Assembly (NCBI GenBank): GCA_050247235.1
Contig: JBFWUN010000012.1
Coordinates: 16,514 to 80,513 of the forward strand
Reading direction: 5' to 3'
DNA length: 64,000 bases
Origin: Gammaproteobacteria bacterium
Lineage (GTDB): Bacteria; Pseudomonadota; Gammaproteobacteria; Ga0077536
The notes below the pieces were generated by a model. The model saw only the letters and a program-made list of their open reading frames with translations, searched no databases and was not told the origin of the DNA. The stretch's first letter is position 1. The number at the start of each line of letters is the position of its first letter. A program made the position numbers and the translations under genes. Below are positions 2,845 to 49,328 of the stretch, one piece after another.

Positions 2845-3453
2845 ATGGCAGCCATGCTAGAGGTACCACGTCCGCGCACGCGGGCATCGCCGCTGTTCAT
2901 TGTGGCGATGGGGGTTTCGGCCGTCGTCGTGGTCGTGGCCGCCCGGATCTTCCCGGCTCTCGCGGACGAGAACCACACGCTGGAAAACCTGCAGGTGGCG
3001 TTGCTGCTCTGCGCTGCGGCCGGGCAGGTCTGGCGGGCTGAGCGCATCCGCGGGGAACAGGAGTACCAGCGGACGCTCGCGGTGCTGCTCGCGTTCCTGT
3101 GTCTGGCGTGTGCGCTGCGTGAGCTCGACATCGACCGGCTCGGCGCGCGCGCGTTCTTCGAACCGTTCGAGACGACCTTGCGGGCGCTGACACTGGGCAG
3201 TATCGCCACCTACGTGTACACACGGTTCCGTGCCGTGCTGCTGCTGCTGCGCGAACCCCGCGCGACTCTGCAGGACCCGGTCGGGCGACTGACCATCGCG
3301 GGTGTCGTGCTCTATTGCCTGTCCTGGCCGCTCGACAAGAAGCTCGCGCCGCTTGGCGAGCGCGCGTCACTGTTGCTGGAGGAATGGCTCGAACTCTGGG
3401 CGTGCGCTTCGTTTTTCCTCGCGGCGTGCGTGCGACCGCGCACCGGGGGGTGA
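2845..3453 (+). CDS. Hypothetical polytopic membrane protein
   Basis: About 200 aa ORF with several hydrophobic segments and GC3-biased codons. Start chosen at ATG 2845 (AGGAG upstream); the ORF track starts at 2743. Confidence 0.65.
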   Translation: MAAMLEVPRPRTRASPLFIVAMGVSAVVVVVAARIFPALADENHTLENLQVALLLCAAAGQVWRAERIRGEQEYQRTLAVLLAFLCLACALRELDIDRLGARAFFEPFETTLRALTLGSIATYVYTRFRAVLLLLREPRATLQDPVGRLTIAGVVLYCLSWPLDKKLAPLGERASLLLEEWLELWACASFFLAACVRPRTGG

Positions 3454-3460
3454 GCGCGCG

Positions 3461-3820
3461 CTACTTCTGCATCCAGCGTCCGTCGGCGCCCTGGAACCAC
3501 GTGCCGGCCGGGACCTTCTGCAGGATCTCGGCCGCGTAGACCTTGCCGACCTCGCCGACCGGCGCGCCGGTGGACACGGCCTGCTGTTCGTAGACCTGGC
3601 GACGCTGGGCGTTGGTCTGATCCACGAGCTGCCTGACGTCCGCCGGCGCGTTCGCGTCGCGCACCACCGCGAACCCGTCGTAGCGCTCGCCGATCAGCCC
3701 CGCCGCGCGCGGGGCGTCCAGCGGGCGCTCCTGTGCGTGCGACGGCGCGCTCTGGAGCACGAGACTCCACGCGAGCGCGACACACCCGAGGGCGGTCTTC
3801 CAGCGGTGAGTCGTCTTCAT
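3461..3820 (-). CDS. ydbL: YdbL family (DUF1318) periplasmic protein
   Basis: Signal peptide, then GLIGERYDGF...VDQTNAQRRQVYEQQA...GTWFQGADGRWMQK. Directly downstream of the ynbE-like gene. Confidence 0.85.
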   Translation of the reverse strand: MKTTHRWKTALGCVALAWSLVLQSAPSHAQERPLDAPRAAGLIGERYDGFAVVRDANAPADVRQLVDQTNAQRRQVYEQQAVSTGAPVGEVGKVYAAEILQKVPAGTWFQGADGRWMQK

Positions 3821-3845
3821 CACGGGCACCTCGTGCGCGGGGAAT

Positions 3846-4073
3846 TCAGAAGATGGGCTTGCTGGCGACGTCCTGCTTCGCCTGCTGTTCGAGCTTGACG
3901 CGCACGTCCGCATCGAGCTTGATGTTGAGATTGATGGTAATCGGCTCGCGTGGCGGTTCCACCTTGACCGTGGGAGAGCACGCGGAGATCACCATCACGC
4001 AGGCGATGAGCGCACCTGCGGACAGGTTACCCGGTATCCACGTGAACGCGCGGTCGGGATGTCGCCGAGTCAT
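3846..4073 (-). CDS. ynbE: YnbE family lipoprotein
   Basis: Lipobox ISA-C followed by SPTVKVEPPREPITINLNIKLDADVRVK; context with ydbH and ydbL. Confidence 0.87.
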   Translation of the reverse strand: MTRRHPDRAFTWIPGNLSAGALIACVMVISACSPTVKVEPPREPITINLNIKLDADVRVKLEQQAKQDVASKPIF

Positions 4074-4085
4074 GCGTTCACCATA
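4074..4085 (-). promoter_or_regulatory. -10 box (TATGGT) 6 nt before ynbE ATG; putative leaderless start
   Basis: Minus strand reads TATGGT-GAACGC-ATG; no Shine-Dalgarno. Confidence 0.5.
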
Positions 4086-4175
4086 CGCCTGTCGGACCGT
4101 GGCGCCAACTCGGCGCCGGCCGTGACTCGCGCGGCGCGTATCGCTGCGATCACATGAAGTGCCCGATGCCACTGA

Positions 4176-4204
4176 TTGTCGGGTGTCGCGGGGGCTCTTA
4201 CACT
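4176..4204 (+). promoter_or_regulatory. Sigma70-type promoter of the monooxygenase gene
   Basis: TTGTCG (4176-4181), 17 nt spacer, TACACT (4199-4204); AGGAG RBS before ATG 4241. Confidence 0.6.
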
Positions 4205-4240
4205 CGGGCGCCCGACCGGTTGGATTCCGAAGGAGCCCGC

Positions 4241-5902
4241 ATGTCCGCCACTGCCGCACACACGAGAGCCAATCCGTCCCCCGTCCCGGAGTACGACGTC
4301 ATCGTGATCGGCGCCGGATTCGGTGGTCTGTACGCGCTGCACACCCTGCGTGAGCAGGGACTGCGCGTACGGGTGTTCGACGAAGCCACGGGCGTCGGCG
4401 GCACCTGGTACTGGAATCGTTATCCGGGCGCGCGCGTCGACTATCCCGGCGGCCCGTTCTACTGCTACACGTTCTCGGAAGACCTCGTCCGCGCGTTCGA
4501 CTGGCCGGAGAAGCAGCCGGACCAGCCCACGGTGCTGCGTTACCTGAACTTCGTTGCCGACCGGCTGGATCTCCGGCGCGACATCGAACTGGGCACCCGG
4601 GTCACTGGCGCGGTGTTCGACGAGGCGACGCAGCGGTGGGAGATCGGGACCGCCAAGGGCACCCGGACGCGCGCGCAGTTCCTGGTCTGCGCGGTGGGCG
4701 CGCTGTCGGCGGCGCACGTCCCCGACATCCCCGGTCTCGCAGGCTTCAGAGGTGAGACGTATCACACGGGTCGCTGGCCGCAGGATCGCCCCGTGGTGTT
4801 CACCGGCAAGCGGGTCGGCATCATCGGCACCGGCTCGTCCGGCATCCAGTCCACCCCGGTGATCGCACGCGAGGCGCGGCACCTCACCGTGTTCCAGCGC
4901 ACGCCGCAGTACTCGGTGCCGGCCGGCAACACGCCCACCGACCAGGCGCTGGTGGCAGAAGCGCGCCGCAACTGGGCGGGTGTCCGCAACATCATGCTGA
5001 CCACGCCGATCGGCGCACCGGATGTGCCGACCACGATCCGGGCCTGCGAACACACGCCCGAGCAGCGTCGCGCCACCTACGAGGAGGCGTGGCGCAAGGG
5101 CGGTCTCGGACCGATCCTCGTCTCCACGTACTGTGACATCCTGACCGATCGTCAATCCAACGAGTGGCTCGCGGAATTCGTGCGCGAGAAGATCCGCGCG
5201 ACAGTCAAGGACCCGGACACCGCGCGCAAGCTGCTGCCGAGCTACCTCATCGCCACCAAGCGCCAGGTCATGGACGAGGGGTACTACGAGGCGTTCAACC
5301 GCGACAACGTGACGCTCGTTGACCTGCGCGAGGATCCGATCGAGGAGATCACCGCGGACGGCCTGCGCACGCGGCACGGTCACCACCCGCTCGACATGCT
5401 GGTGTTCGCCACGGGCTTCGATGCGATCACCGGCGCTTTGCAGAAGATCAATCCGCGCGGCCGCGGCGGTGTGTCGCTCACCGACTGCTGGAAGGATCGG
5501 TTCAGCTCGTGGCTCGGCCTGACGATTCCGCACATGCCGAATCTGTTCATGATCCACGGGCCGGAATCCCCCTGCGTGCTGTTCAACATGCCGCTCGGCG
5601 CGGAATTGCAGGGCGACTGGATCCGGGAGTGCATCCTGCACCTTCGCGCACACGGCATCGGCGTCATCGAACCGGCGCCCGGCGTCGAGTTCGCGTGGTC
5701 GCGCGAGGTGGAGACCATCGCCAACCAGTCGCTCTATCCGCAGACCGAGTCCTGGTACACGGGCAGCAACATTCCCGGCAAGCATCGGCAGTTCGCGGTG
5801 CACATGGGCGGACCGGCGTATTTCGCACGGATCCGCGCCGCGGCGGCCGCGGGGTACGAGGGTTTCGTGCTGGAGCCGGCGCGGACATCCGCGGCCGTGT
5901 GA
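4241..5902 (+). CDS. Type I Baeyer-Villiger monooxygenase (cyclohexanone monooxygenase family, FAD/NADPH)
   Basis: Rossmann motifs GAGFGG and GTGSSG, BVMO fingerprint FRGETYHTGRWP, and GGTWYWNRYPGARVD. Confidence 0.92.
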   Translation: MSATAAHTRANPSPVPEYDVIVIGAGFGGLYALHTLREQGLRVRVFDEATGVGGTWYWNRYPGARVDYPGGPFYCYTFSEDLVRAFDWPEKQPDQPTVLRYLNFVADRLDLRRDIELGTRVTGAVFDEATQRWEIGTAKGTRTRAQFLVCAVGALSAAHVPDIPGLAGFRGETYHTGRWPQDRPVVFTGKRVGIIGTGSSGIQSTPVIAREARHLTVFQRTPQYSVPAGNTPTDQALVAEARRNWAGVRNIMLTTPIGAPDVPTTIRACEHTPEQRRATYEEAWRKGGLGPILVSTYCDILTDRQSNEWLAEFVREKIRATVKDPDTARKLLPSYLIATKRQVMDEGYYEAFNRDNVTLVDLREDPIEEITADGLRTRHGHHPLDMLVFATGFDAITGALQKINPRGRGGVSLTDCWKDRFSSWLGLTIPHMPNLFMIHGPESPCVLFNMPLGAELQGDWIRECILHLRAHGIGVIEPAPGVEFAWSREVETIANQSLYPQTESWYTGSNIPGKHRQFAVHMGGPAYFARIRAAAAAGYEGFVLEPARTSAAV

Positions 5903-42130: not shown

Positions 42131-43645
42131 TCACGCGGCCGCGCGCGGTGCCTCCGTGTCATCGCGCGGCGGCAGGTAGTCGGCGGCAGTCTGTTCGAAG
42201 TGTGCCAGTTCGCGTTCGACCCAGGTGGCGTCGCGACCGTGGGCCCGTGCCAGCGCGGCGGCCACCGCGGGGGCGAGCGCGCGCGCTTGCGCAACGTCCA
42301 CGAACAGCGTGCGCAGCCGACGCCCGAGCACGTCCTCCACGCGGCACGCGAGCTGCCCGCCGATCGCCCGCGCGAGCGTGGCCTCCAGCGAGGCGTCCGG
42401 CCCGCCGGCGGTCGCCGGTACGCGGAGCACCGGTGGCAGCAGCGATGCCCCGTCATCCAGCCGGTCAGCGGCCGTGCGGGAGGCCTGTGCGGCGATCCCG
42501 TGGTGACCAAGCGCAGCATCGAGACCGGCGATCGCCATCCGCCGGAACGTGGTCCATTTTCCGCCGTACAGCGACACCAGCCCGGAATCCGCGATCGTCA
42601 GCTGGTATTCGCGCGACGCCCGCGCGGTCCCGTGCGCGGCAGTGCCCGCAAGCGGCCGCACCCCCGCGAAGCACGCCGTGATGTCTTCGGTGCGGGGCGC
42701 GCGCGCAAGGTAGCAGGCTGCAACGGCCAGGATCTCGTCGATCTCGGCCGCCGTGGCGCGCAGCGGGGCGTCGGGGGTGGTCGGCACGTCGGTCGTGCCG
42801 AGCAGCACGCGGTCATGCCAGGGCAGCGCGAACATCACGCGCCCATCCGGGGTCCGCGGCATCAGCAGACCCTGCGGGTGTGGCCAGAACGCGCGCTCGA
42901 CCACGACGTGACTGCCCCGGCTGAGCGTCAGTGACGGCACCCGGCGCGGGTCGTCCAGCGCGGCGATCCCGCGCGCGCCCGGCCCCGCCGCATTGATGAT
43001 GATACGGCCGGAAAACTCGTGCACCGCGCCGGTCAGCATGTCCTCGCACACCACGCCGCGCACGCGACCTGCGGCGTTCTTCAGCAGTGCGCGGACCGGC
43101 GCGTGGTTCACCACGTGCGCCCCGTGATCGGCGGCGCGCGCCAGCACCGCGAGGAGCAGGCGGGTGTCGTCGAACCGCGCGTCGGCATAGCGCAGCTGCC
43201 GCGCGCCAGGCGCGCGCAGCGACGCGCGCACCGCCGCGGGGTCGTCCCGGGGCGCCATCGCGTCGGCGCTGCGCGCGAGTCGCGCGTAGAGCGCAAGCCC
43301 GAAGCGGTATTTCAGGTGCTCCACCCACCCGGTGGTCGGGATCGTGAACGCGAGACGCGTGACCAGCGCGGGGGCCTGCACGAGCAGGTGTTCGCGCTCA
43401 CGGAGTGCCTCGAACACCAGCCCTAGCTGGCCCTGCGCGAGGTAGCGGATACCCCCGTGGATGAGTTTCGTGCTGCGGCTGGACGTGCCGCAACCGAAGT
43501 CCCCGCCTTCCAGCAGCAACGTGGACAGGCCCCGACCGGCGGCGTCCCACGCCACGCCGGCGCCGGTCGCGCCGCCGCCGATCACGATCACGTCCCACGG
43601 CTGACGCATCGCGCACACCGCGTCCAGCAGCGTGGCGCGGGTCAT
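42131..43645 (-). CDS. glpD: FAD-dependent glycerol-3-phosphate dehydrogenase
   Basis: [55 protein letters not shown]; overlaps glpK stop (ATGA). Confidence 0.93.
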
Positions 43646-45132
43646 TCGGCGGTCGCCCAGTGGCCAGCGCGCACGATGGCCTTCTCCCAGCGGGCACGCA
43701 GCCCGGTGGTGTCGCACGCGGGATCGGGGGCGAACGCGGCGGCCTCGTCCCGGGTGGCCACGACGAGCGTGGCGCGGTCACGCCAGGTGCCGACACCAAG
43801 CCCCGCGAGCGCTGCCGCGCCGCGCGCGGTGGTTTCCAGGTCCCGCGGCTGGCGCAGGCTGCGCCCGAGGAGATCCGCCTGCAGTTGCATCAGCAGCCGG
43901 TTGCGCGACGCGCCGCCGTCGACCCGCAGTTCACCGGTCGGGGCGCCGGTGTCCTGCGCCATCGCGACGAGCACGTCATGAACCTGCAGTGCGATGGCCT
44001 CCAGCGCAGCGCGCGCAATGTGCGCGCGGGTCGTGCCGCGCGTGAGACCGATCAGGAGCCCGCGCGCGTCGGCGTCCCAGTGCGGCGCGCCGAGGCCGGT
44101 GAAGGCGGGAACGAGCACCACGCCGCCGCTGTCCGGCACCGAGGCGGCGAGTGGTTCGATTTCGTTCGCGTCCGCGATGATGCCCAGGCCGTCGCGCAGC
44201 CATTGCACGATCGCGCCGCCCATGAACACGCTGCCTTCGACGGCGAACGCACGCTCGCCGCCGATGGCGCTCGCCACGGTGGTCAGCAGGCGCGCCCGCG
44301 ACGGCACGATGCGGGGGCCCGTCTGCTGCAGGATGAAGCAGCCCGTGCCGTAAGTGCACTTCGCGTCACCGGGCGCGAAACACCCCTGTCCGAACAACGC
44401 GGCCTGCTGGTCACCCGCGATGCCGGCGATCGGCGCCCGCACCCCCGGCAACGCGTTCGTCTCCGCCAGGATCCCGCTCGAATCGACGATGCGCGGCAGG
44501 ATCTCGCGCGGGATGTCCCACAGCGCCAGCAAGTCATCGTCCCAGTCGCCGCGGGCGAGATCGTAGAGCAGGGTGCGTGACGCGTTCGTCGCGTCGGTGA
44601 CGTGCAGCCGGCCGCCGGTGAGCTGCCAGGTCAGCCAGGTATCGATGGTGCCGGCCGCGAGTTCGCCGTGGGCCGCCGCGCCGCGTGCGCCGGCACAGTG
44701 GTCGAGCAGCCACGCGAGCTTGCTCGCGCTGAAGTACGGATCGAGCACCAGCCCCGTGCGCCGCTGCAGGTCGGGCTCGTGACCGGACTCGCGCAGCGCG
44801 GTGCATGCCGCCGCCGTGCGCCGGTCCTGCCATACCAGCGCACGATGCAGCGGTTCACCGGTGCGCCGGTTCCACAGCACCACGGTCTCGCGCTGGTTGG
44901 TGATGCCGATGCCGTCGATCGCGCCGGCCGCCACGCCCGCGTCGGCCAGCGCCGCGCACGCCGCGTCGCGTTGTCCGAGCCAGATCTCGCGCGGGTCGTG
45001 TTCCACGAGGCCGGGCGCCGGGAAATGCTGTTGGAGCGGGCGTTGCGCCCGGCCGAGCACGCGCAGCGACGCGTCGTAGACGAACGCGCGCGAACTGGTG
45101 GTGCCCTGGTCGAGCGCGAGCAGGTAGCGCAT
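43642..45132 (-). CDS. glpK: Glycerol kinase
   Basis: [57 protein letters not shown] motifs. Confidence 0.96.
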
Positions 45133-45211
45133 GGCCGCAGTATAAACATCCGGCGTGACCACCTGGCCCTCGTGCCCGTGACGAACGCGAAATCGACTAC
45201 TCAATTTGGGC

Positions 45212-45386
45212 GATGGGCGCCCCAGGGCCGGTCACCGACACTCCGGCGCGTGCACTGGCGGGGAGCCCCACCAGTAACCCTGTTGGGGGCCGGTGCAGAG
45301 ACGCGCGAGTGTTTCCGGGCCGTAAGGTCCGCTTCCCCTTAGTACTGCCTGACCTTGGCGCCCAGGGTTCCCTGGGCGCTCGTTTT
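45212..45386 (+). ncRNA. Candidate structured non-coding RNA or switch-like leader (family not recognised)
   Basis: Nested complementary helices spanning 45238-45312, GNRA hairpin 45317-45330, 5'/3' pairing 45212-45227 with 45370-45384, terminal hairpin plus U-run. G-U pairs and the GNRA loop favour the + strand. Confidence 0.55.
45358..45386 (+). terminator. Intrinsic terminator-like hairpin
   Basis: GCGCCCAGG-GTTC-CCTGGGCGC followed by TCGTTTT. Confidence 0.6.
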
Positions 45387-45515
45387 ACCCGCCACCGTCG
45401 TCACCCCGCGATGCGCCCGCGGGCCCTCCGCTCAAGTTGTCCTGTGCTCCGACGTTAATACCCGGAACGCCCTGCGCGTGGCCTCGTCACGCGTCGCAAT
45501 AAGGACTGCACCGGT

Positions 45516-46886
45516 ATGACCCACGCTGACAGCGCATCCACGGCCTCCACCCCGCGCCTGCCGCGGCTCGAACCCTTCGTAGCCGCGGTTGCCGCGCTGG
45601 GCGCGGGCGCATTGGCGCTCCCGTGGCCGCTGCCGGTCACCGCGGCCTGGGTGGCGCTGATCGGGGTACTGCACGGGCTCGCGCCGCGCACGCGCGCACC
45701 GTTCGCCGACGGTCTGCGCATCACGCTGCTGGCACTCTCGTGGGCCGCCGGGCCCGCGCTCGCCGCGCCGGGTGTCCCCTTGTGGGTGGCCAGTGCCGCC
45801 GCGTGCGTTGCGCTCGCCACCGCGCTCGCGGCGAGTCGCGCACTGCTGGCTGCGGAGCATTCCGCGCGCGCGGCACACGACACGGCGCGGAGCGACCTGG
45901 AACATCGGCTGCGGCAGGCCACCGACGAGGTGGCGCGGCTGCGCATCGATCTGAAGACCGGTCACGACGTGTACCAGCAGATCAGCCAGCAGCTGCAGGA
46001 GACCTCCGACGAGGCGAGCCTGCTGCGCAGCAAGGCGGAGGCGCTGGCCACCACGCTCCAGCGCGTGATGCCCTACGAGATGGAATCCGGCCTGCTCACC
46101 GCCGAGAAATTCAACACGGTGCTCGAGCGCGAAGCGGCCCGCATGCAGCGACAGGAACTCCCGTTGACGATGGTTCTCGTGAAGCTGGACCATTTCGCGG
46201 AATTCGAACGCGGTTATGGCCGGGTGGCATACGAAGCCGTGATCCGGCGCGTGTCCGAGATCCTGCACAAGTCCGGCAACCGTCCGGGTGACGTCGCCGG
46301 GCGCCTCGACGAGCACACTTTCGCCCTGCTGTATCCCGAGGCCGATCATCACAACGGGTTCCGGCTCGCCGAGGCCATCCGGACCCGCCTCGTCCAGCTC
46401 GGCGTCAGGAACGAAGCGTCGCCGCACGGGCTGGTCACCGCCAGTCTCGGCTGCGCGACGGTGCTGCCGAGCGGTGACACGGACGCCGGCACGTTACGCG
46501 AGCGCGCCGAGTCCGCGCTGTACGAAGCAGGTTTCCAGGACGGCAACCGCTGCGTGCGCTACCGCCTCGCGCAGGCCGTGCGGGTCGAACACTGGGACCT
46601 GCAGAACGAAGGCGCGCTGACGCCGGACAGCCTGCGCCACAAGCTCGCCCTGCTCGGGTACTCGGGCAAGCCGCGTCGCCTCGCCCCCGGCGAATCGCAG
46701 CGCGAGCGGCGGGTCGTGATCGATACCGTGAAGGCGATCGTGGAAGGGAACCTCAAGATCTCGCTCGAGGGCGAAGCCCGCATGCTGCGTCCGGGTGACT
46801 GCCTGTACCTCCCCAAGGGCACCGTCACGCGCGAAGAGGTGATCGGCGACAAGCCCGTGATCTGTTTCGAGGGCGTGCTCGCCTGA
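45516..46886 (+). CDS. Membrane protein: TM + coiled coil + degenerate GGDEF (RxxD I-site intact) + cupin-like domain
   Basis: GGDEF scaffold (VTASLGCA, ALYEA, GNRC) with the active site read as DEHTF, preceded by RPGD-x5; C-terminal LRPGDCLYLPKGT cupin strand. Confidence 0.8.
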   Translation: MTHADSASTASTPRLPRLEPFVAAVAALGAGALALPWPLPVTAAWVALIGVLHGLAPRTRAPFADGLRITLLALSWAAGPALAAPGVPLWVASAAACVALATALAASRALLAAEHSARAAHDTARSDLEHRLRQATDEVARLRIDLKTGHDVYQQISQQLQETSDEASLLRSKAEALATTLQRVMPYEMESGLLTAEKFNTVLEREAARMQRQELPLTMVLVKLDHFAEFERGYGRVAYEAVIRRVSEILHKSGNRPGDVAGRLDEHTFALLYPEADHHNGFRLAEAIRTRLVQLGVRNEASPHGLVTASLGCATVLPSGDTDAGTLRERAESALYEAGFQDGNRCVRYRLAQAVRVEHWDLQNEGALTPDSLRHKLALLGYSGKPRRLAPGESQRERRVVIDTVKAIVEGNLKISLEGEARMLRPGDCLYLPKGTVTREEVIGDKPVICFEGVLA

Positions 46887-46897
46887 GCGCAAGGCCC

Positions 46898-47347
46898 GTG
46901 CGGCCTGTCGCGCGCATCCATCGGCGCCTGCCGGACTGCGCGCTGCCGGTGTTCACGATGCACGCGCATCCGACCTACGCGACGCAGGCATTCGAGGCCG
47001 GTGCGCGAGGGTACGTGACAAAGGCGAGCCCGGCGGACGAACTCATCGCGGCGATCCGTGCCGTCGCGCGCGGCGCACGCTTCCTGAGCGACGACATCGC
47101 CCAGGCGCTCGCGATCGAGCGCCTGGATCATGCCCGGTCCTGTCTCGATGCATTGTCGCCGCGCGAATTCGAGGTACTGCGGCTGCTCGTGCAGGCGCAC
47201 CCGGTTGCCGCGATCGCGGAGTCGCTGCACCTCAGTCCCAAGACGGTCATGAACCTGCACTACGCGATCAAGCGCAAGCTCGAGGTGGACACCGACATCG
47301 AACTGACCCGCCTCGCGGCGCGCCTCGGCCTGATCGACGACGCCTGA
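46898..47347 (+). pseudogene. N-terminally truncated NarL/LuxR-family response regulator
   Basis: Keeps FTMH...AGARGYVTKAS and a complete LuxR HTH (LSPREFEVLRLL...LHLSPKTV) but lacks the first half of REC, including the phospho-Asp. Confidence 0.55.
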
Positions 47348-47474
47348 GCTGGCGACCGCCCGGCGCCCCTCCGCGTGATCGGCCGAACGTGATGGACAGC
47401 CCACGGGACCGCCACTACAGTCGCAGGCCCACACGGATCCCTCGTGTACCACGGAGCGAACCGGAGACTGGCGC

Positions 47475-47882
47475 ATGGACAGACGACTACCGAACTGGGC
47501 AATCCCGTTGCTGCTGTGTGCGGGATGCGCCGCCCACAAGCCGATTCTCTATTCGAGCGCCGGCAACCAGGCGGGCGCCGACGCCGCCATCGCCGAGTGT
47601 CACAACCTGGCCGTGGCGGCAGGTGCGCAACCGACGGGCGGCCAGGTCGGGCAGGCCGCGCGTGACACCACCAAGGGCGCTGCGCTCGGCGCGGCGACCG
47701 GGGCCGTCGGCGGGGCCATCGCCGGCAACGCGGGCAGCGGCGCCGGCATCGGCGCGGCGACCGGTGCGACCGCCGCGCTGATCCATTCGCTGTTCACCCC
47801 TGCGGCGCCGAACCCGGCGTACCGCGCGTTCGTGGAACGCTGCCTGCGCGATCGCGGATTCGACCCCGTCGGGTGGCAGTGA
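47475..47882 (+). CDS. Glycine-zipper lipoprotein
   Basis: Lipobox CAG-C and GAALGAATGAVGGAIAGNAGSGAGIGAATGA glycine zipper. Confidence 0.82.
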   Translation: MDRRLPNWAIPLLLCAGCAAHKPILYSSAGNQAGADAAIAECHNLAVAAGAQPTGGQVGQAARDTTKGAALGAATGAVGGAIAGNAGSGAGIGAATGATAALIHSLFTPAAPNPAYRAFVERCLRDRGFDPVGWQ

Positions 47883-47903
47883 ACGGGGTGTGGCCCGGCC
47901 CCG

Positions 47904-49328
47904 CTATTCGGGGCGCCGAAGCGCCGGCCGCGGCAGCGGACGCCCGGCTTCGAACGCGCGCGCCGCGCGCAGCACGGCGGCGTCGCCGAACATCGGTCCC
48001 ACGATCTGCAGTCCGATCGGCAGGCCGTCCCGGGTCAGTCCGCAGGGGATCGTGCACGCCGGCTGCTGCGACAGATTGAACGGGTAGCTGAACGGGGTCC
48101 AGCCGAGCATCGTCTCCGGGGTCATGGCGCATTCACCCGGCGCGCGCAGCGGGAATGCCGGTACCGCCACCGCCGGTGTCACGAGCAGGTCGAACCCCTG
48201 CATGAACTGGCGGAGATGCGCCCCCAGCGCGCCACGGCGCAGGTTGAGACGCTGGACGTCGAGCGCGCTCAGCCGCGCGCCCAGTTCCGCCTGGGCGCGC
48301 AAGTCCGGATCGGTCAGCGCCTGCTGGTCCGGCGTCAACGTGTTCCACACGGTCCACGCACCCAGGAACCACAGGCCGGTGGTGATCTCGACGGGATCAT
48401 CGAAACCCGGATCACACGCCTCGACGCGTGCGCCAAGCGCCTCGAACTCGCGCACGGCCGCGGCGCACGCGGCGGCGATCTCCGGATGCACGTTCGCGTA
48501 ACCGAGCGTGGCCGACCACGCGATGCGCAGACCGCGCACGCCGTCCTCGAGCCCGATGGTGTAATCGGTCGGATCCGGCGGCAGCGCTGTCCAGTCGCGC
48601 GCGTCGGGCTGTTTCAGCACGTTCATCGCGAGGGCCGCGTCGCGCACGCTCATCGTGTGCGGGCCGAGATGCGCGACCGTACCGAACGGCGACAGCGGAT
48701 ACGCCGGCACCCGTCCGAAGCTCGGCTTCAGGCCGAAGTTGCCGCAGAACGCCGCCGGGATCCGCACACTGCCGGCGCCATCCGTGCCGATGCCGATGGG
48801 CCCCATGCCGGCGGCCACGGCCACGGCGGCGCCGCCGGACGATCCGCCCGGAGTACGCGATGGATCCCATGGATTGCGCGTGAGGCCCGTCAGCGGCGAA
48901 TTCGTCTCGCCTTTGCAGCCGAACTCCGGCGTGGTGGTCTTGCCGAGCAGCACGGCACCGGCCTCGCGCAGCCGCGCGGTGGCCGGGGCATCCACGTCCC
49001 ACGGCTGCACCGGATCGACCGTGCGGCTGCCGCGCAACGTGGGCCACCCGCGCGTCAGCACGAGGTCCTTGATCGAGACCGGCACGCCGTCCAGCGCGCC
49101 GCACGGCGCGCCCGCACGCCAGCGGGCTTCACTCGCCGCCGCAGCGGCCCGCGCGTCGTCCGCGGCGAGATGGCAGAACGCGTTGAGGTGCGGGTTCCAG
49201 CTCTCGATCCGCGCCAGCACCGCGTGCAAGGTCTCCACCGGGGACGCGAGGCCGCGCCGGTAGAGCGCGCGCAGCACGTGGGCCGGGCAGTCGGCGAGAT
49301 CGGTGGCGGCGTGCGGCGAGGCGGTCAT
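47904..49328 (-). CDS. Amidase-signature family amidase
   Basis: LDGVPVSIKD (Lys), TPGGSSGG and GTDGAGSVRIPA (Ser-cisSer), GLPIGLQIVG. Confidence 0.93.
   Translation of the reverse strand: MTASPHAATDLADCPAHVLRALYRRGLASPVETLHAVLARIESWNPHLNAFCHLAADDARAAAAASEARWRAGAPCGALDGVPVSIKDLVLTRGWPTLRGSRTVDPVQPWDVDAPATARLREAGAVLLGKTTTPEFGCKGETNSPLTGLTRNPWDPSRTPGGSSGGAAVAVAAGMGPIGIGTDGAGSVRIPAAFCGNFGLKPSFGRVPAYPLSPFGTVAHLGPHTMSVRDAALAMNVLKQPDARDWTALPPDPTDYTIGLEDGVRGLRIAWSATLGYANVHPEIAAACAAAVREFEALGARVEACDPGFDDPVEITTGLWFLGAWTVWNTLTPDQQALTDPDLRAQAELGARLSALDVQRLNLRRGALGAHLRQFMQGFDLLVTPAVAVPAFPLRAPGECAMTPETMLGWTPFSYPFNLSQQPACTIPCGLTRDGLPIGLQIVGPMFGDAAVLRAARAFEAGRPLPRPALRRPE

What the first reader, a model, noticed from the sequence alone, without database searches (positions are those of the whole stretch)
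45516..46886. TM-coiled coil-dead GGDEF (intact I-site)-metal-less cupin fusion: candidate c-di-GMP effector
Seen in sequence: the GG(D/E)EF position reads DEHTF (nt 46308-22), DxDxFK reads KLDHFA and GHxxGD reads GRVAYE, but RxxD (RPGD, 46281-92) sits exactly five residues upstream. Established: degenerate GGDEF domains that keep RxxD act as c-di-GMP receptors (PelD, PopA). The C-terminal cupin lacks the His ligands of both cupin motifs (GDCLYLPKGTVT has T at the His position). Inference: a membrane-anchored c-di-GMP receptor with a non-catalytic cupin as ligand-binding or output module. I do not recognise this architecture. It lies directly downstream of the candidate structured RNA.
Basis: partly seen in the sequence, partly recalled or inferred. 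Interest (0 to 1): 0.66.

Follow-up and report, generated by a model that had tools for sequence, protein, structure and literature searches.

The report
Dead GGDEF–dead cupin membrane receptor
This gene encodes a membrane protein whose c-di-GMP-making domain has lost its catalytic site but keeps, in every relative examined, the pocket that binds c-di-GMP, fused to a cupin barrel that has lost its metal site; it is most likely an uncharacterised receptor for this bacterial second messenger, which databases name a cyclase.

Summary
ORF 45516-46886 (+, 456 aa) has four parts:
- four membrane helices;
- a roughly 70-residue coiled coil;
- a GGDEF domain (Pfam E = 2.7e-19);
- a C-terminal cupin.

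The gene is not decaying. I compared 53 relatives (21-100% identity, at least 5 clades), all from uncultured Gammaproteobacteria.
- **Inhibitory-site (I-site) residues:** R256, G258, D259, R212 and R209 are kept in 53 of 53.
- **Active-site (A-site) residues:** every one is lost or variable. The guanine-binding Asn is 0/53, the catalytic Glu 1/53, and the two Gly 3/53 and 7/53.
- **Missing I-site residue:** the position of PleD R390 is not kept (A287).

The cupin belongs to a small clade whose free-standing ~105-aa members keep the metal ligands (HxH...H). In this protein those positions are R398, V400 and T438. The same clade is also fused, rarely, to a canonical PilZ domain.

The host genome has 22 GGDEF and 7 PilZ matches.

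The conserved sRNA upstream is an independent gene. It precedes all 9 orthologs found among 41 related genomes, but it also occurs in 4 genomes that lack this gene.

Most likely this is an I-site c-di-GMP receptor with a pseudo-cupin output module. Binding, output and partner are untested. It is a new variant of a known kind and of moderate interest.

The parts
45516..46886 (+). Whole gene: 456-aa membrane protein made of membrane helices, coiled coil, degenerate GGDEF and pseudo-cupin
   Evidence: ORF and translation. About 43 full-length homologs. 53 loci in GTDB genomes. Low-depth RNA-seq contigs lie on the gene body.
45558..45851 (+). Four transmembrane helices (residues 15-112); N-terminus and C-terminus predicted inside; periplasmic loops of 3-4 residues
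   Evidence: AlphaFold helices 15-33, 39-54, 62-82 and 89 onward. Hydropathy peaks, and Arg at 14, 17, 58, 60 and 108. This is the least conserved region (mean column identity 0.34). The number of helices varies among relatives: the 374-aa form has one hydrophobic stretch, and the ~525-aa forms have a longer membrane region.
45852..46070 (+). Coiled-coil stalk (residues 113-185), continuous with the fourth membrane helix
   Evidence: A single helix 89-184 in the model. Weak Pfam hits to coiled-coil families. Foldseek and HMMER align it with the WspR stalk and the GCN4-WspR fusion 3I5C.
46071..46550 (+). Degenerate GGDEF domain (residues 186-345)
   Evidence: Pfam PF00990 E = 2.7e-19. TIGR00254 E = 8.6e-18. 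Foldseek to WspR, DgcB and PleD, target-normalised TM-score up to 0.92.
46131..46151 (+). E206-x-x-R209-x-x-R212 on helix alpha-1; R212 aligns with the secondary I-site arginine (WspR R198 / PleD R313)
   Evidence: WspR alignment. R209 and R212 are 53/53; E206 is at least 94%.
46182..46235 (+). Destroyed nucleotide and metal site: KLDHFAEFERGYGRVAYE in place of D-x-D-x-F-K-x-x-N-D-x-x-G-H-x-x-G-D
   Evidence: Family counts: metal Asp 16/53, guanine Asn 0/53, guanine Asp 19/53.
46281..46292 (+). RPGD, the RxxD primary I-site motif, five residues before the GGDEF position
   Evidence: Aligned on WspR R242-S-S-D245. R256, G258 and D259 are invariant in 53/53.
46308..46322 (+). DEHTF at the GG(D/E)EF position (dead active site)
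   Evidence: Aligned on WspR GGEEF. Family counts: Gly 3/53 and 7/53; catalytic Glu 1/53.
46551..46883 (+). Conserved linker (C-V-R-Y-R) plus C-terminal cupin (residues 346-456) with its N-terminal helix motif W360...G366...K376-L377...G381-Y382
   Evidence: AlphaFold pLDDT 88.8, pTM 0.79. Foldseek to cupins 3FJS, 1O5U (DUF861), KdgF, EutQ and 3LWC. Profile against PDB: EutQ 2e-7. Stand-alone relatives.
46707..46715 (+). R398-R399-V400 where stand-alone relatives have the cupin motif-1 H-x-H metal ligands
   Evidence: Alignment A3. Family counts: first His 11/53, second His 0/53.
46827..46829 (+). T438 where stand-alone relatives have the cupin motif-2 His
   Evidence: Alignment A3. His is 0/53 in the fused family.
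45197..45390 (+). Context: conserved sRNA-like element (5' box ACTACTCAATTTGGGCGATGG; 3' box GTACTGCCTGACC; GC hairpin followed by a T-run)
   Evidence: Conserved in the 8 intergenic regions aligned. Rfam gives only a sub-threshold ncS54 hit. The 3' box occurs in 13 of 41 related genomes, 4 of them without the GGDEF-cupin ortholog.
43642..45132 (-). Context: glpK (glycerol kinase), divergent from the gene; glpD, a DUF2461 gene and a metallo-beta-lactamase-fold gene follow
   Evidence: Pfam. Synteny holds in the 8 ortholog loci examined. The likely start is M25 of the longest ORF.
46898..47347 (+). Context: 5'-truncated NarL/LuxR-type response-regulator gene (receiver-domain profile positions 61-111 plus GerE)
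   Evidence: Pfam. In a ~99% identical strain (run X4) the sequence upstream of 46907 differs and reads, in frame, SLPGASGLSA, the missing receiver segment.

Best explanation
The gene encodes an inner-membrane protein, probably a dimer, that cannot make c-di-GMP but most likely binds it.

**Shown**
- Four membrane helices lead into a long coiled coil that carries a GGDEF domain.
- In that domain the metal-binding, guanine-binding and GG(D/E)EF residues are all replaced.
- The allosteric I-site signature (E-x-x-R-x-x-R on helix alpha-1 and R-x-G-D five residues before the former active site) is invariant across a family that has diverged to about 21% identity.
- The C-terminal domain is a cupin barrel. 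It derives from a small clade of metal-binding cupins and has lost all three His ligands.

**Inferred**
- An intercalated c-di-GMP dimer binds RxxD of one subunit and the alpha-1 arginine of the other, as in product-inhibited WspR and PleD.
- This locks the two GGDEF domains of the coiled-coil dimer in one orientation and repositions the two pseudo-cupins.
- The pseudo-cupins act as the output, either as a protein-interaction or dimerisation surface or as a metal-free ligand pocket.
- The membrane part is mainly an anchor. It is the least conserved region, the number of helices varies, and the periplasmic loops are only 3-4 residues long.
For: 1. **Real, conserved gene.**
- About 43 full-length homologs at 38-63% identity and 53 loci in GTDB genomes.
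- RNA-seq contigs lie on the gene body.

2. **Dead cyclase in every member.**
- Guanine Asn 0/53.
- Catalytic Glu 1/53.
- The two Gly 3/53 and 7/53.
- Metal Asp 16/53.

3. **I-site conserved.**
- R256, G258, D259, R212 and R209 are each 53/53.
- They are among only 37 columns that are at least 94% identical.
- They are in register with WspR R242, D245 and R198.
- The review PMC7288161 lists RxxD, R390 and R313' as the PleD I-site.

4. **Precedent.** PelD and PopA bind c-di-GMP through degenerate GGDEF domains, at 0.5-2 uM (PMC10519070).

5. **A c-di-GMP network exists in the host.** The genome has 22 GGDEF and 7 PilZ matches.

6. **The cupin is a pseudo-enzyme.** Stand-alone relatives keep HxH...H; here the positions are R398, V400 and T438.

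7. **A second c-di-GMP link for this cupin clade.** The same clade is fused to a canonical PilZ domain (RxxxR and DxSxxG present). It is a real gene on a 129.7-kb contig.

8. **Fold support.** Foldseek places the coiled coil plus GGDEF on the WspR stalk-GGDEF architecture.
Against: - No binding data exist.
- The third primary I-site residue (PleD R390 / WspR K273) is A287 here and varies in the family: A19, S8, T5, V5, and only R2.
- RxxD and the alpha-1 arginines are common in GGDEF domains in general, so part of their conservation could be structural.
- No gene neighbour is conserved across clades, so nothing points to an output pathway.
- The PilZ-cupin fusion is rare: 2 clusters, 86% identical to each other.
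- I could not inspect model coordinates, so the position of the cupin relative to the I-site is unknown.
- All members come from uncultured organisms.
Confidence: 0.55

Rival explanations
1. The protein is a cupin-based small-molecule sensor or a scaffold that does not bind c-di-GMP. The dead GGDEF domain only provides a dimeric platform, or pairs with active cyclases or phosphodiesterases to modulate them. The RxGD motif is conserved for structural or partner-binding reasons.
For: - One canonical I-site residue is missing (A287).
- The cupin and the linker are as conserved as the GGDEF domain (mean column identity 0.52 against 0.55).
- The YEAxFQGG motif at the GGDEF-cupin junction is nearly invariant, which suggests a fixed interdomain interface.
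- The cupin resembles EutQ/DUF861-type metal-free cupins and the CENP-C dimerisation cupin.
Against: - What selection preserves is exactly the I-site signature (ExxRxxR plus RxxD in register), while every A-site residue drifts. That pattern is what a retained c-di-GMP pocket predicts.
- The cupin pocket has lost its ligands, and the replacement residues vary between clades.
Confidence: 0.22
2. The protein is a CsrD-like factor. It is a membrane-anchored, doubly degenerate signalling protein that controls the stability or action of the abundant sRNA encoded immediately upstream.
For: - The architecture parallels CsrD (membrane helices, coiled coil, dead GGDEF, second dead domain); this comparison rests on my own knowledge.
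- The sRNA-like element lies directly upstream of the gene in 9 of the 9 genomes, among 41 relatives searched, that carry an ortholog.
- These loci form one clade.
Against: - The sRNA motif also occurs in 4 genomes without the gene. G007 and G008 have glpK, then the sRNA, then HpaB. G005 and G022 have other neighbours.
- The other clades of the family have no such RNA nearby.
- There is no RNA-binding or EAL domain.
- No sequence complementary to the sRNA's conserved 3' box lies in or near the gene.
Confidence: 0.05
3. The protein is a regulator linked to glycerol metabolism. It senses glycerol, glycerol-3-phosphate or a membrane-lipid cue and modulates the divergent glpK-glpD operon or glycerol-dependent biofilm behaviour.
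For: - The divergent arrangement with glpK, glpD and DUF2461 is kept in the 8 ortholog loci examined, from 5 genera.
- G007 and G008, the two genomes with glpK beside the sRNA but no GGDEF-cupin gene, also lack glpD at this locus.
Against: - The whole block, including unrelated genes, is syntenic, so vertical inheritance explains the linkage.
- The paralogous clades sit next to FKBP, GDSL-esterase or rhomboid genes instead.
- There is no DNA-binding domain.
- G005 keeps glpD without the gene.
Confidence: 0.05
4. The gene is an active but unorthodox cyclase, or simply a decaying gene copy.
For: - Databases name relatives 'diguanylate cyclase'.
- One ortholog reads GGDNF at the motif (L028).
Against: - All substrate-binding, metal-binding and catalytic residues are missing in all clades.
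- All examined members but one have full-length open reading frames (L044 is split into two ORFs), and the replacement motifs are conserved down to 21% identity.
- GC3 is 0.87, like the neighbouring genes.
Confidence: 0.03

Closest known systems
PelD (Pseudomonas aeruginosa), a degenerate-GGDEF I-site c-di-GMP receptor
   Same: It is membrane-anchored, with a catalytically dead GGDEF domain that keeps RxxD and binds c-di-GMP at 0.5-1.9 uM (PMC10519070). It acts as a receptor, not an enzyme.
   Different: - PelD has a GAF domain before the GGDEF domain and no cupin.
- It lies in the pel polysaccharide operon.
- It is too divergent to be found by sequence with the family profile.
- Here there is a coiled-coil stalk, a C-terminal pseudo-cupin and no polysaccharide genes nearby.
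PopA (Caulobacter crescentus)
   Same: A degenerate GGDEF domain used as a c-di-GMP receptor through its I-site (2 uM; PMC10519070).
   Different: PopA is soluble, with two receiver domains at the N-terminus and no C-terminal domain. Its output is recruitment of proteolysis substrates to the cell pole (my own knowledge).
WspR (PA3702; PDB 3BRE, 3I5A-C) and GcbC (5EUH): active cyclases with a helical stalk and an I-site
   Same: - These are among the closest solved relatives by sequence and fold: profile E = 2e-34 and target-normalised TM-score 0.9.
- They share the coiled-coil-then-GGDEF layout.
- They share the ExxRxxR...RxxD I-site in the same register.
   Different: WspR is an active GGEEF enzyme with a receiver domain. 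Here the A-site is gone, the WspR K273 position is Ala, and a cupin is appended.
CuxR (Sinorhizobium meliloti), an AraC-type regulator that binds c-di-GMP with its cupin domain
   Same: It shows that a cupin can take part in c-di-GMP signalling (6.7 uM; PMC10519070).
   Different: CuxR binds through an N-terminal RxxxR, PilZ-like mechanism (my own knowledge). No RxxxR precedes this cupin; the linker reads R345-x-x-R348-x-R350. It also has no DNA-binding domain.
EutQ / DUF861 (Cupin_3) small cupins: 2PYT, 3LWC, TM1112 (1O5U)
   Same: These are the best sequence and fold matches of the C-terminal domain. They are single-domain barrels of about 100 residues.
   Different: - They are stand-alone proteins.
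- The Pfam Cupin_3 score here is just under the cut-off.
- The nearest true relatives are a separate small clade of ~105-aa cupins that keep HxH...H.
CsrD (Escherichia coli)
   Same: It is membrane-anchored, has a coiled-coil or HAMP-like stalk, a degenerate GGDEF domain followed by a second degenerate domain, and has no enzymatic role (my own knowledge).
   Different: In CsrD the second domain is EAL, no I-site is used, and it acts on CsrB/CsrC decay. Here the second domain is a cupin and the I-site is invariant.

Membership tests
GGDEF domain superfamily (PF00990) | Match to the family HMM above the curated cut-off | tested here: met
   69.9 bits against 23.8, residues 197-344. TIGR00254 gives 64.6 bits against 37.4.
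GGDEF domain superfamily (PF00990) | Nucleotidyl-cyclase-like alpha/beta fold | tested here: met
   AlphaFold model with pLDDT about 90 over the domain. Foldseek to WspR and DgcB, target-normalised TM-score 0.9, E = 1e-14.
Active diguanylate cyclase | GG(D/E)EF active-site motif | tested here: not met
   The motif reads DEHTF. In the family, Gly is 3/53 and 7/53 and the catalytic Glu is 1/53.
Active diguanylate cyclase | Metal-binding Asp (PleD D327) and guanine-binding Asn and Asp (PleD N335, D344) | tested here: not met
   These positions are K223, E231 and E240. Family counts are D 16/53, N 0/53 and D 19/53.
Degenerate-GGDEF I-site c-di-GMP receptors (PelD/PopA type) | RxxD five residues upstream of the (former) GGDEF motif | tested here: met
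   RPGD at 256-259 aligns on WspR R242-D245. R and D are 53/53.
Degenerate-GGDEF I-site c-di-GMP receptors (PelD/PopA type) | Secondary I-site arginine on helix alpha-1 (PleD R313 / WspR R198) | tested here: met
   R212 aligns with WspR R198 and is 53/53.
Degenerate-GGDEF I-site c-di-GMP receptors (PelD/PopA type) | Third primary-site basic residue (PleD R390 / WspR K273) | tested here: not met
   This position is A287. The family has A19, S8, T5, V5 and only R2.
Degenerate-GGDEF I-site c-di-GMP receptors (PelD/PopA type) | Measured, RxxD-dependent c-di-GMP binding | not testable with these tools
   This needs DRaCALA, ITC or MST on purified protein.
Cupin superfamily | Small double-stranded beta-barrel fold | tested here: met
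   The domain model has pLDDT 88.8 and pTM 0.79. Foldseek gives probability 1.0 to many cupins.
Cupin superfamily | Motif 1 G(x)5HxH(x)3-4E(x)6G and motif 2 G(x)5PxG(x)2H(x)3N with their metal ligands | tested here: not met
   The glycine and proline framework is kept (G411, G427, P433, G435). The His positions are R398, V400 and T438. The motif-2 His is 0/53.
EutQ-like Cupin_3 (PF05899) | Match above the Pfam gathering score | tested here: inconclusive
   23.3 bits against a cut-off of 23.5. Several homologs are precomputed as PF05899. The family profile hits EutQ 2PYT at 2e-7.
CuxR-type c-di-GMP-binding cupin | RxxxR motif N-terminal to the barrel | tested here: not met
   The linker reads N-R345-C-V-R348-Y-R350-L-A-Q-A-V-R356. 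There is no RxxxR spacing.
CsrD-like sRNA turnover factor | Degenerate EAL domain after the GGDEF domain, and dependence on a partner sRNA | tested here: not met
   No EAL match. The sRNA is present in 4 genomes that lack the gene.

The most novel reading that the evidence does not exclude
The 'W-x5-G...KL...GY' cupin clade is a dedicated output module of c-di-GMP signalling. It was captured independently by two different c-di-GMP-binding domains: the I-site-only GGDEF domain here, and a canonical PilZ domain in P0104. On this reading, the doubly dead membrane protein is a c-di-GMP-gated adaptor. Nucleotide-driven cross-linking of the two GGDEF domains opens or closes the paired pseudo-cupins, which capture or release a still unknown partner at the inner membrane. 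That would be a new receptor-output logic, confined to an uncultured gammaproteobacterial lineage.
Probability: 0.25. Interest if true: 0.62.

Novelty: new variant of a known kind. Interest (0 to 1): 0.45.

Why it matters
c-di-GMP controls the switch between motile and biofilm life, but known receptors explain only part of its effects. Each new receptor class shows a new way in which the signal is read.

- **What is defined here:** a conserved family in which selection has kept only the c-di-GMP-binding half of a cyclase and joined it to a cupin that has itself lost its catalytic metal. Neither half looks catalytic, so any function must come from binding and conformational change.
- **Annotation error:** databases call these proteins diguanylate cyclases. 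That inflates counts of c-di-GMP synthesis capacity in environmental Gammaproteobacteria from landfill, sludge, groundwater and soil.
- **Testability:** the hypothesis can be tested with a soluble fragment and three point mutants.

Tried and rejected
- **Rfam on 44000-48000.** Only a sub-threshold ncS54 hit (22 bits against a gathering score of 43). No riboswitch lies in front of the gene.
- **Literature search for 'GGDEF' plus 'cupin'.** No paper describes this architecture.
- **Search for an ancestor with an active GGDEF fused to this cupin.** None was found. All fused hits examined are degenerate.
- **Conserved neighbours across clades.** None was informative. The ortholog clade sits by glpKD and the sRNA. 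Other clades sit by FKBP, GDSL-esterase, rhomboid or Fpg-like genes.
- **Contexts of stand-alone cupins.** The contigs were too short to help.
- **More PilZ-cupin fusions.** Only 2 clusters were found, so this is a lead and not solid support.
- **sRNA seed complementarity in the window.** None near this gene or glpK.
- **Sigma-70 promoter scan.** No site between the sRNA terminator and the start codon.
- **PelD by sequence.** The family profile does not find it in PDB.
Full report
**1. The observation**

The ORF 45516-46886 on the + strand gives a 456-aa protein. An AAGGA ribosome-binding site lies about 10 nt before the ATG. GC3 is 0.87, like the neighbouring genes.

Pfam finds a GGDEF domain at residues 197-344 (E = 2.7e-19, 69.9 bits against a cut-off of 23.8). 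It also finds near-threshold cupin matches at 402-450: Cupin_3 at 23.3 bits against 23.5, and Cupin_2 at 22.7 against 27.2. NCBIfam agrees on the GGDEF domain, but the protein reaches none of the named cyclase equivalogs.

- RPGD = R256-D259 (46281-46292).
- VAGRL follows it.
- DEHTF = D265-F269 (46308-46322).
- KLDHFA = 223-228.
- GRVAYE = 235-240.
- GDCLYLPKGTVT = 427-438.

HMMER's alignment with WspR (PDB 3BRE) fixes the register independently. RPGDVAGRLDEHTF lies on RSSDLAARYGGEEF, and KLDHFAEFERGYGRVAYE lies on DVDYFKSYNDTFGHVAGD.

**2. Anatomy**

An AlphaFold2 model built on 32 homologs has mean pLDDT 85. It shows:
- helices 15-33, 39-54 and 62-82;
- one uninterrupted helix 89-184;
- the GGDEF alpha/beta domain;
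- a beta-barrel from about residue 356 to the end.

Hydropathy and the positions of the arginines (14, 17, 58, 60, 108) fit four membrane helices with both ends in the cytoplasm. The outside loops are only 3-4 residues long. There is therefore no periplasmic sensor domain.

Foldseek places the stalk plus GGDEF on WspR, the GCN4-WspR fusion, DgcB and PleD (E down to 1.8e-14, target-normalised TM-score up to 0.92).

The C-terminal 111 residues, modelled alone (pLDDT 88.8, pTM 0.79), match single-domain cupins with probability 1.0. These include 3FJS, TM1112/DUF861, KdgF, EutQ, 3LWC and the CENP-C dimerisation cupin. A profile of this domain finds EutQ (2PYT, 2e-7) and 3LWC (2.5e-7) in PDB by sequence.

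**3. A conserved family, not a decaying copy**

The 5.8-billion-protein search gave about 43 full-length homologs (38-63% identity) with the same GGDEF plus cupin layout. A scan of one genome per GTDB species gave 53 loci. All are metagenome-assembled genomes of uncultured Gammaproteobacteria; some carry obviously wrong species labels. Many genomes hold two or three paralogs. A tree shows at least five clades.

In an alignment of 53 members, identity to the window protein falls to 21%.

| Site | Position in window protein | Count in family |
|---|---|---|
| I-site Arg (PleD R359) | R256 | R 53/53 |
| Middle Gly of RxGD | G258 | G 53/53 |
| I-site Asp (PleD D362) | D259 | D 53/53 |
| Secondary I-site Arg (WspR R198) | R212 | R 53/53 |
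| Helix alpha-1 Arg | R209 | R 53/53 |
| Third I-site basic residue (PleD R390) | A287 | R 2/53 |
| A-site metal Asp | K223 | D 16/53 |
| A-site guanine Asn | E231 | N 0/53 |
| A-site guanine Asp | E240 | D 19/53 |
| First Gly of GGDEF | D265 | G 3/53 |
| Second Gly of GGDEF | E266 | G 7/53 |
| Catalytic Glu | T268 | E 1/53 |

Selection has therefore kept one surface of the domain and released the other. None of the further fused homologs I read from the 1.84-billion-representative search has an intact motif either.

**4. Which I-site residues are present**

The review PMC7288161 gives the PleD I-site as R359 and D362 (RxxD), R390, and R313 from the neighbouring subunit. Using WspR as a bridge:
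- R256 and D259 correspond to R242 and D245.
- R212 corresponds to WspR R198 (PleD R313).
- PleD R390 / WspR K273 corresponds to A287, which is not basic and not conserved.

Three of the four positions are thus kept without exception and one is absent. This is the main sequence-level reservation about c-di-GMP binding.

PelD (0.5-1.9 uM) and PopA (2 uM) are the precedents for degenerate GGDEF domains that act as receptors (PMC10519070). The host genome has a c-di-GMP network to read, with 22 GGDEF and 7 PilZ matches.

**5. The cupin is a pseudo-enzyme with informative relatives**

Searching 1.84 billion representatives with the cupin-only profile gave 390 hits at E <= 1e-3 and 122 at E <= 1e-10. 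Of the 150 best hits listed:
- about a third are ~500-550-aa GGDEF-cupin proteins;
- most of the rest are free-standing proteins of 100-140 aa that match the whole profile, including the N-terminal helix motif (W...DG.L[ST]E...KL...GY).

Most of the free-standing proteins I read keep the classical ligands: PPGTxFPEHxHxVDKIDAV and PxGxxHSAEV. In the window protein the same columns are R398, V400 and T438. In the fused family the motif-2 His is 0/53 and the second motif-1 His is 0/53.

The same cupin clade occurs in other fusions:
- with OsmC;
- as four tandem copies;
- with a membrane segment;
- in P0104, behind a canonical PilZ domain (Pfam 54 bits; RxxxR and DxSxxG visible). P0104 is a real gene on a 129.7-kb contig.

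A second, unrelated c-di-GMP-binding domain in front of the same cupin is suggestive. But the fusion is rare, with 2 clusters, so I count it as a lead.

**6. Genomic setting**

The gene is divergent from glpK, followed by glpD, a DUF2461 gene and a metallo-beta-lactamase-fold gene. This arrangement is kept in the eight ortholog loci examined, which come from five genera. Downstream genes vary.

The other clades sit next to FKBP, GDSL-esterase, rhomboid or Fpg-like genes. No neighbour is shared across clades, so the context names no output pathway.

The 383-nt spacer holds a conserved element: a 5' box, the 3' box GTACTGCCTGACC, a GC hairpin and a T-run (about 45197-45390). It matches no Rfam family.

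- The 3' box precedes the gene in all 9 genomes that have an ortholog.
- It is also present in 4 genomes without one.
- In G007 and G008 the order is glpK, sRNA, HpaB.
- In G005 an acyl-CoA-ligase-like gene follows the sRNA.
- In G022 the surroundings are different altogether.

The RNA is therefore not a leader of this gene and does not depend on it. No sequence complementary to its 3' box lies near the gene.

**7. Expression and assembly**

One RNA-seq run holds 48% of the gene's sampled words. Its low-depth contigs lie on the gene body but not on the flanks, which is weak evidence of transcription.

The same call shows that the downstream 'response regulator' (46898-47347) is a 5'-truncated gene. 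It has receiver-domain profile positions 61-111 plus GerE. In a ~99% identical strain the sequence left of 46907 is different and reads SLPGASGLSA in frame, which is the missing receiver segment. The two forms share about 7 nt at the joint (46907-46913). A unitig of the probable source sample spans the joint, so it is a real strain-specific deletion and not an assembly chimera. It does not touch the GGDEF-cupin ORF.

**8. Mechanism**

*Shown:*
- membrane anchoring;
- a coiled-coil stalk;
- a dead A-site;
- an invariant partial I-site;
- a ligand-less cupin.

*Inferred:* the protein is a parallel dimer. An intercalated c-di-GMP dimer bridges RxxD of one subunit and the alpha-1 arginine of the other, as in inhibited WspR and PleD. 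This fixes the GGDEF pair and repositions the two pseudo-cupins, which form the output surface or a metal-free pocket.

The membrane part is probably just an anchor. It is the least conserved region (0.34 mean identity). The 374-aa relative has a single hydrophobic stretch, and the ~525-aa relatives have a longer membrane region.

I put about 0.55 on this reading. The 'dead cyclase' part is near certain. The main rival (0.22) is a scaffold or cupin sensor that does not bind c-di-GMP. CsrD-like and glycerol-linked roles are possible but poorly supported (0.05 each).

**9. Novelty and score**

Receptors built on degenerate GGDEF domains are a known kind. What is new here:
- the C-terminal pseudo-cupin;
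- the family-wide pairing of two dead enzyme folds;
- the restriction to an uncultured gammaproteobacterial lineage;
- the mis-annotation as 'diguanylate cyclase'.

Other windows of this scan flagged members of the same family with the same reading (e1-1538656, e1-4825244, e1-1488814). Those are AI notes and not independent evidence, but my counts agree with them.

I rate it a new variant of a known kind, with interest 0.45. It is solid and directly testable, but it would not surprise a specialist, and the output is unknown.

Noticed in passing
window 46898-47347 (+); joint at 46907-46913: The NarL/LuxR-type response-regulator gene lacks the first ~60 profile positions of its receiver domain, which normally hold the phospho-accepting Asp. 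In a ~99% identical strain (run X4) the upstream sequence differs and encodes SLPGASGLSA in frame. The window strain therefore carries a deletion with about 7 nt of microhomology. A unitig of run X1 spans the joint, and a minor strain in X1 has the other form.
   Followed up: partly
window 45197-45390 (+); G007:C225, G008:C109, G005:C351, G022:C45: The conserved sRNA-like element (3' box GTACTGCCTGACC plus terminator) is found in 13 of 41 related genomes. Four of these lack the GGDEF-cupin ortholog, and one of those four (G022) also has no glpK nearby. A second conserved box, ACTACTCAATTTGGGCGATGG, lies about 150-250 nt upstream of the 3' box in the 8 intergenic regions aligned. It stays with the RNA in L017, where a glpQ-like gene is inserted next to glpK.
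   Followed up: partly
window 45431-45460 (+): Between the sRNA terminator and the start codon, CTCAAGTT-N(12-14)-CCGACGTTA is shared with the two nearest relatives (L018, L019). There it ends about 8-10 nt before the ATG, which could mean a promoter and leaderless mRNA in those genomes. No sigma-70 consensus site was found in the window's spacer.
   Followed up: no
P0104 on L084 6001-6759: A canonical PilZ domain (RxxxR and DxSxxG present) is fused to the same cupin clade with intact His ligands. It sits next to a family-2 glycosyltransferase on a 129.7-kb metagenome contig. Only 2 clusters of this fusion exist.
   Followed up: partly
P0050, P0192, P0165, P0171 (representative library): Other architectures of the same cupin clade exist: four tandem cupin copies with intact HxH...H (P0050), OsmC plus cupin (P0192), and cupin plus membrane segment plus an unknown ~300-aa domain (P0165, P0171).
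   Followed up: no
L045 742-3999 and L066 890-3969: Two genomes carry two GGDEF-cupin genes of this family in tandem.
   Followed up: no
L019 (G006:C183) 3407-4531; protein P0006: The closest ortholog but one is only 374 aa. It has a single hydrophobic stretch, because the region of the first three membrane helices is missing, while the rest is intact. This fits a membrane part that is only an anchor.
   Followed up: no
L081 (G007) and L082 (G008): In the two genomes where glpK and the sRNA are followed directly by HpaB with no GGDEF-cupin gene, glpD is also missing between glpK and DUF2461.
   Followed up: no
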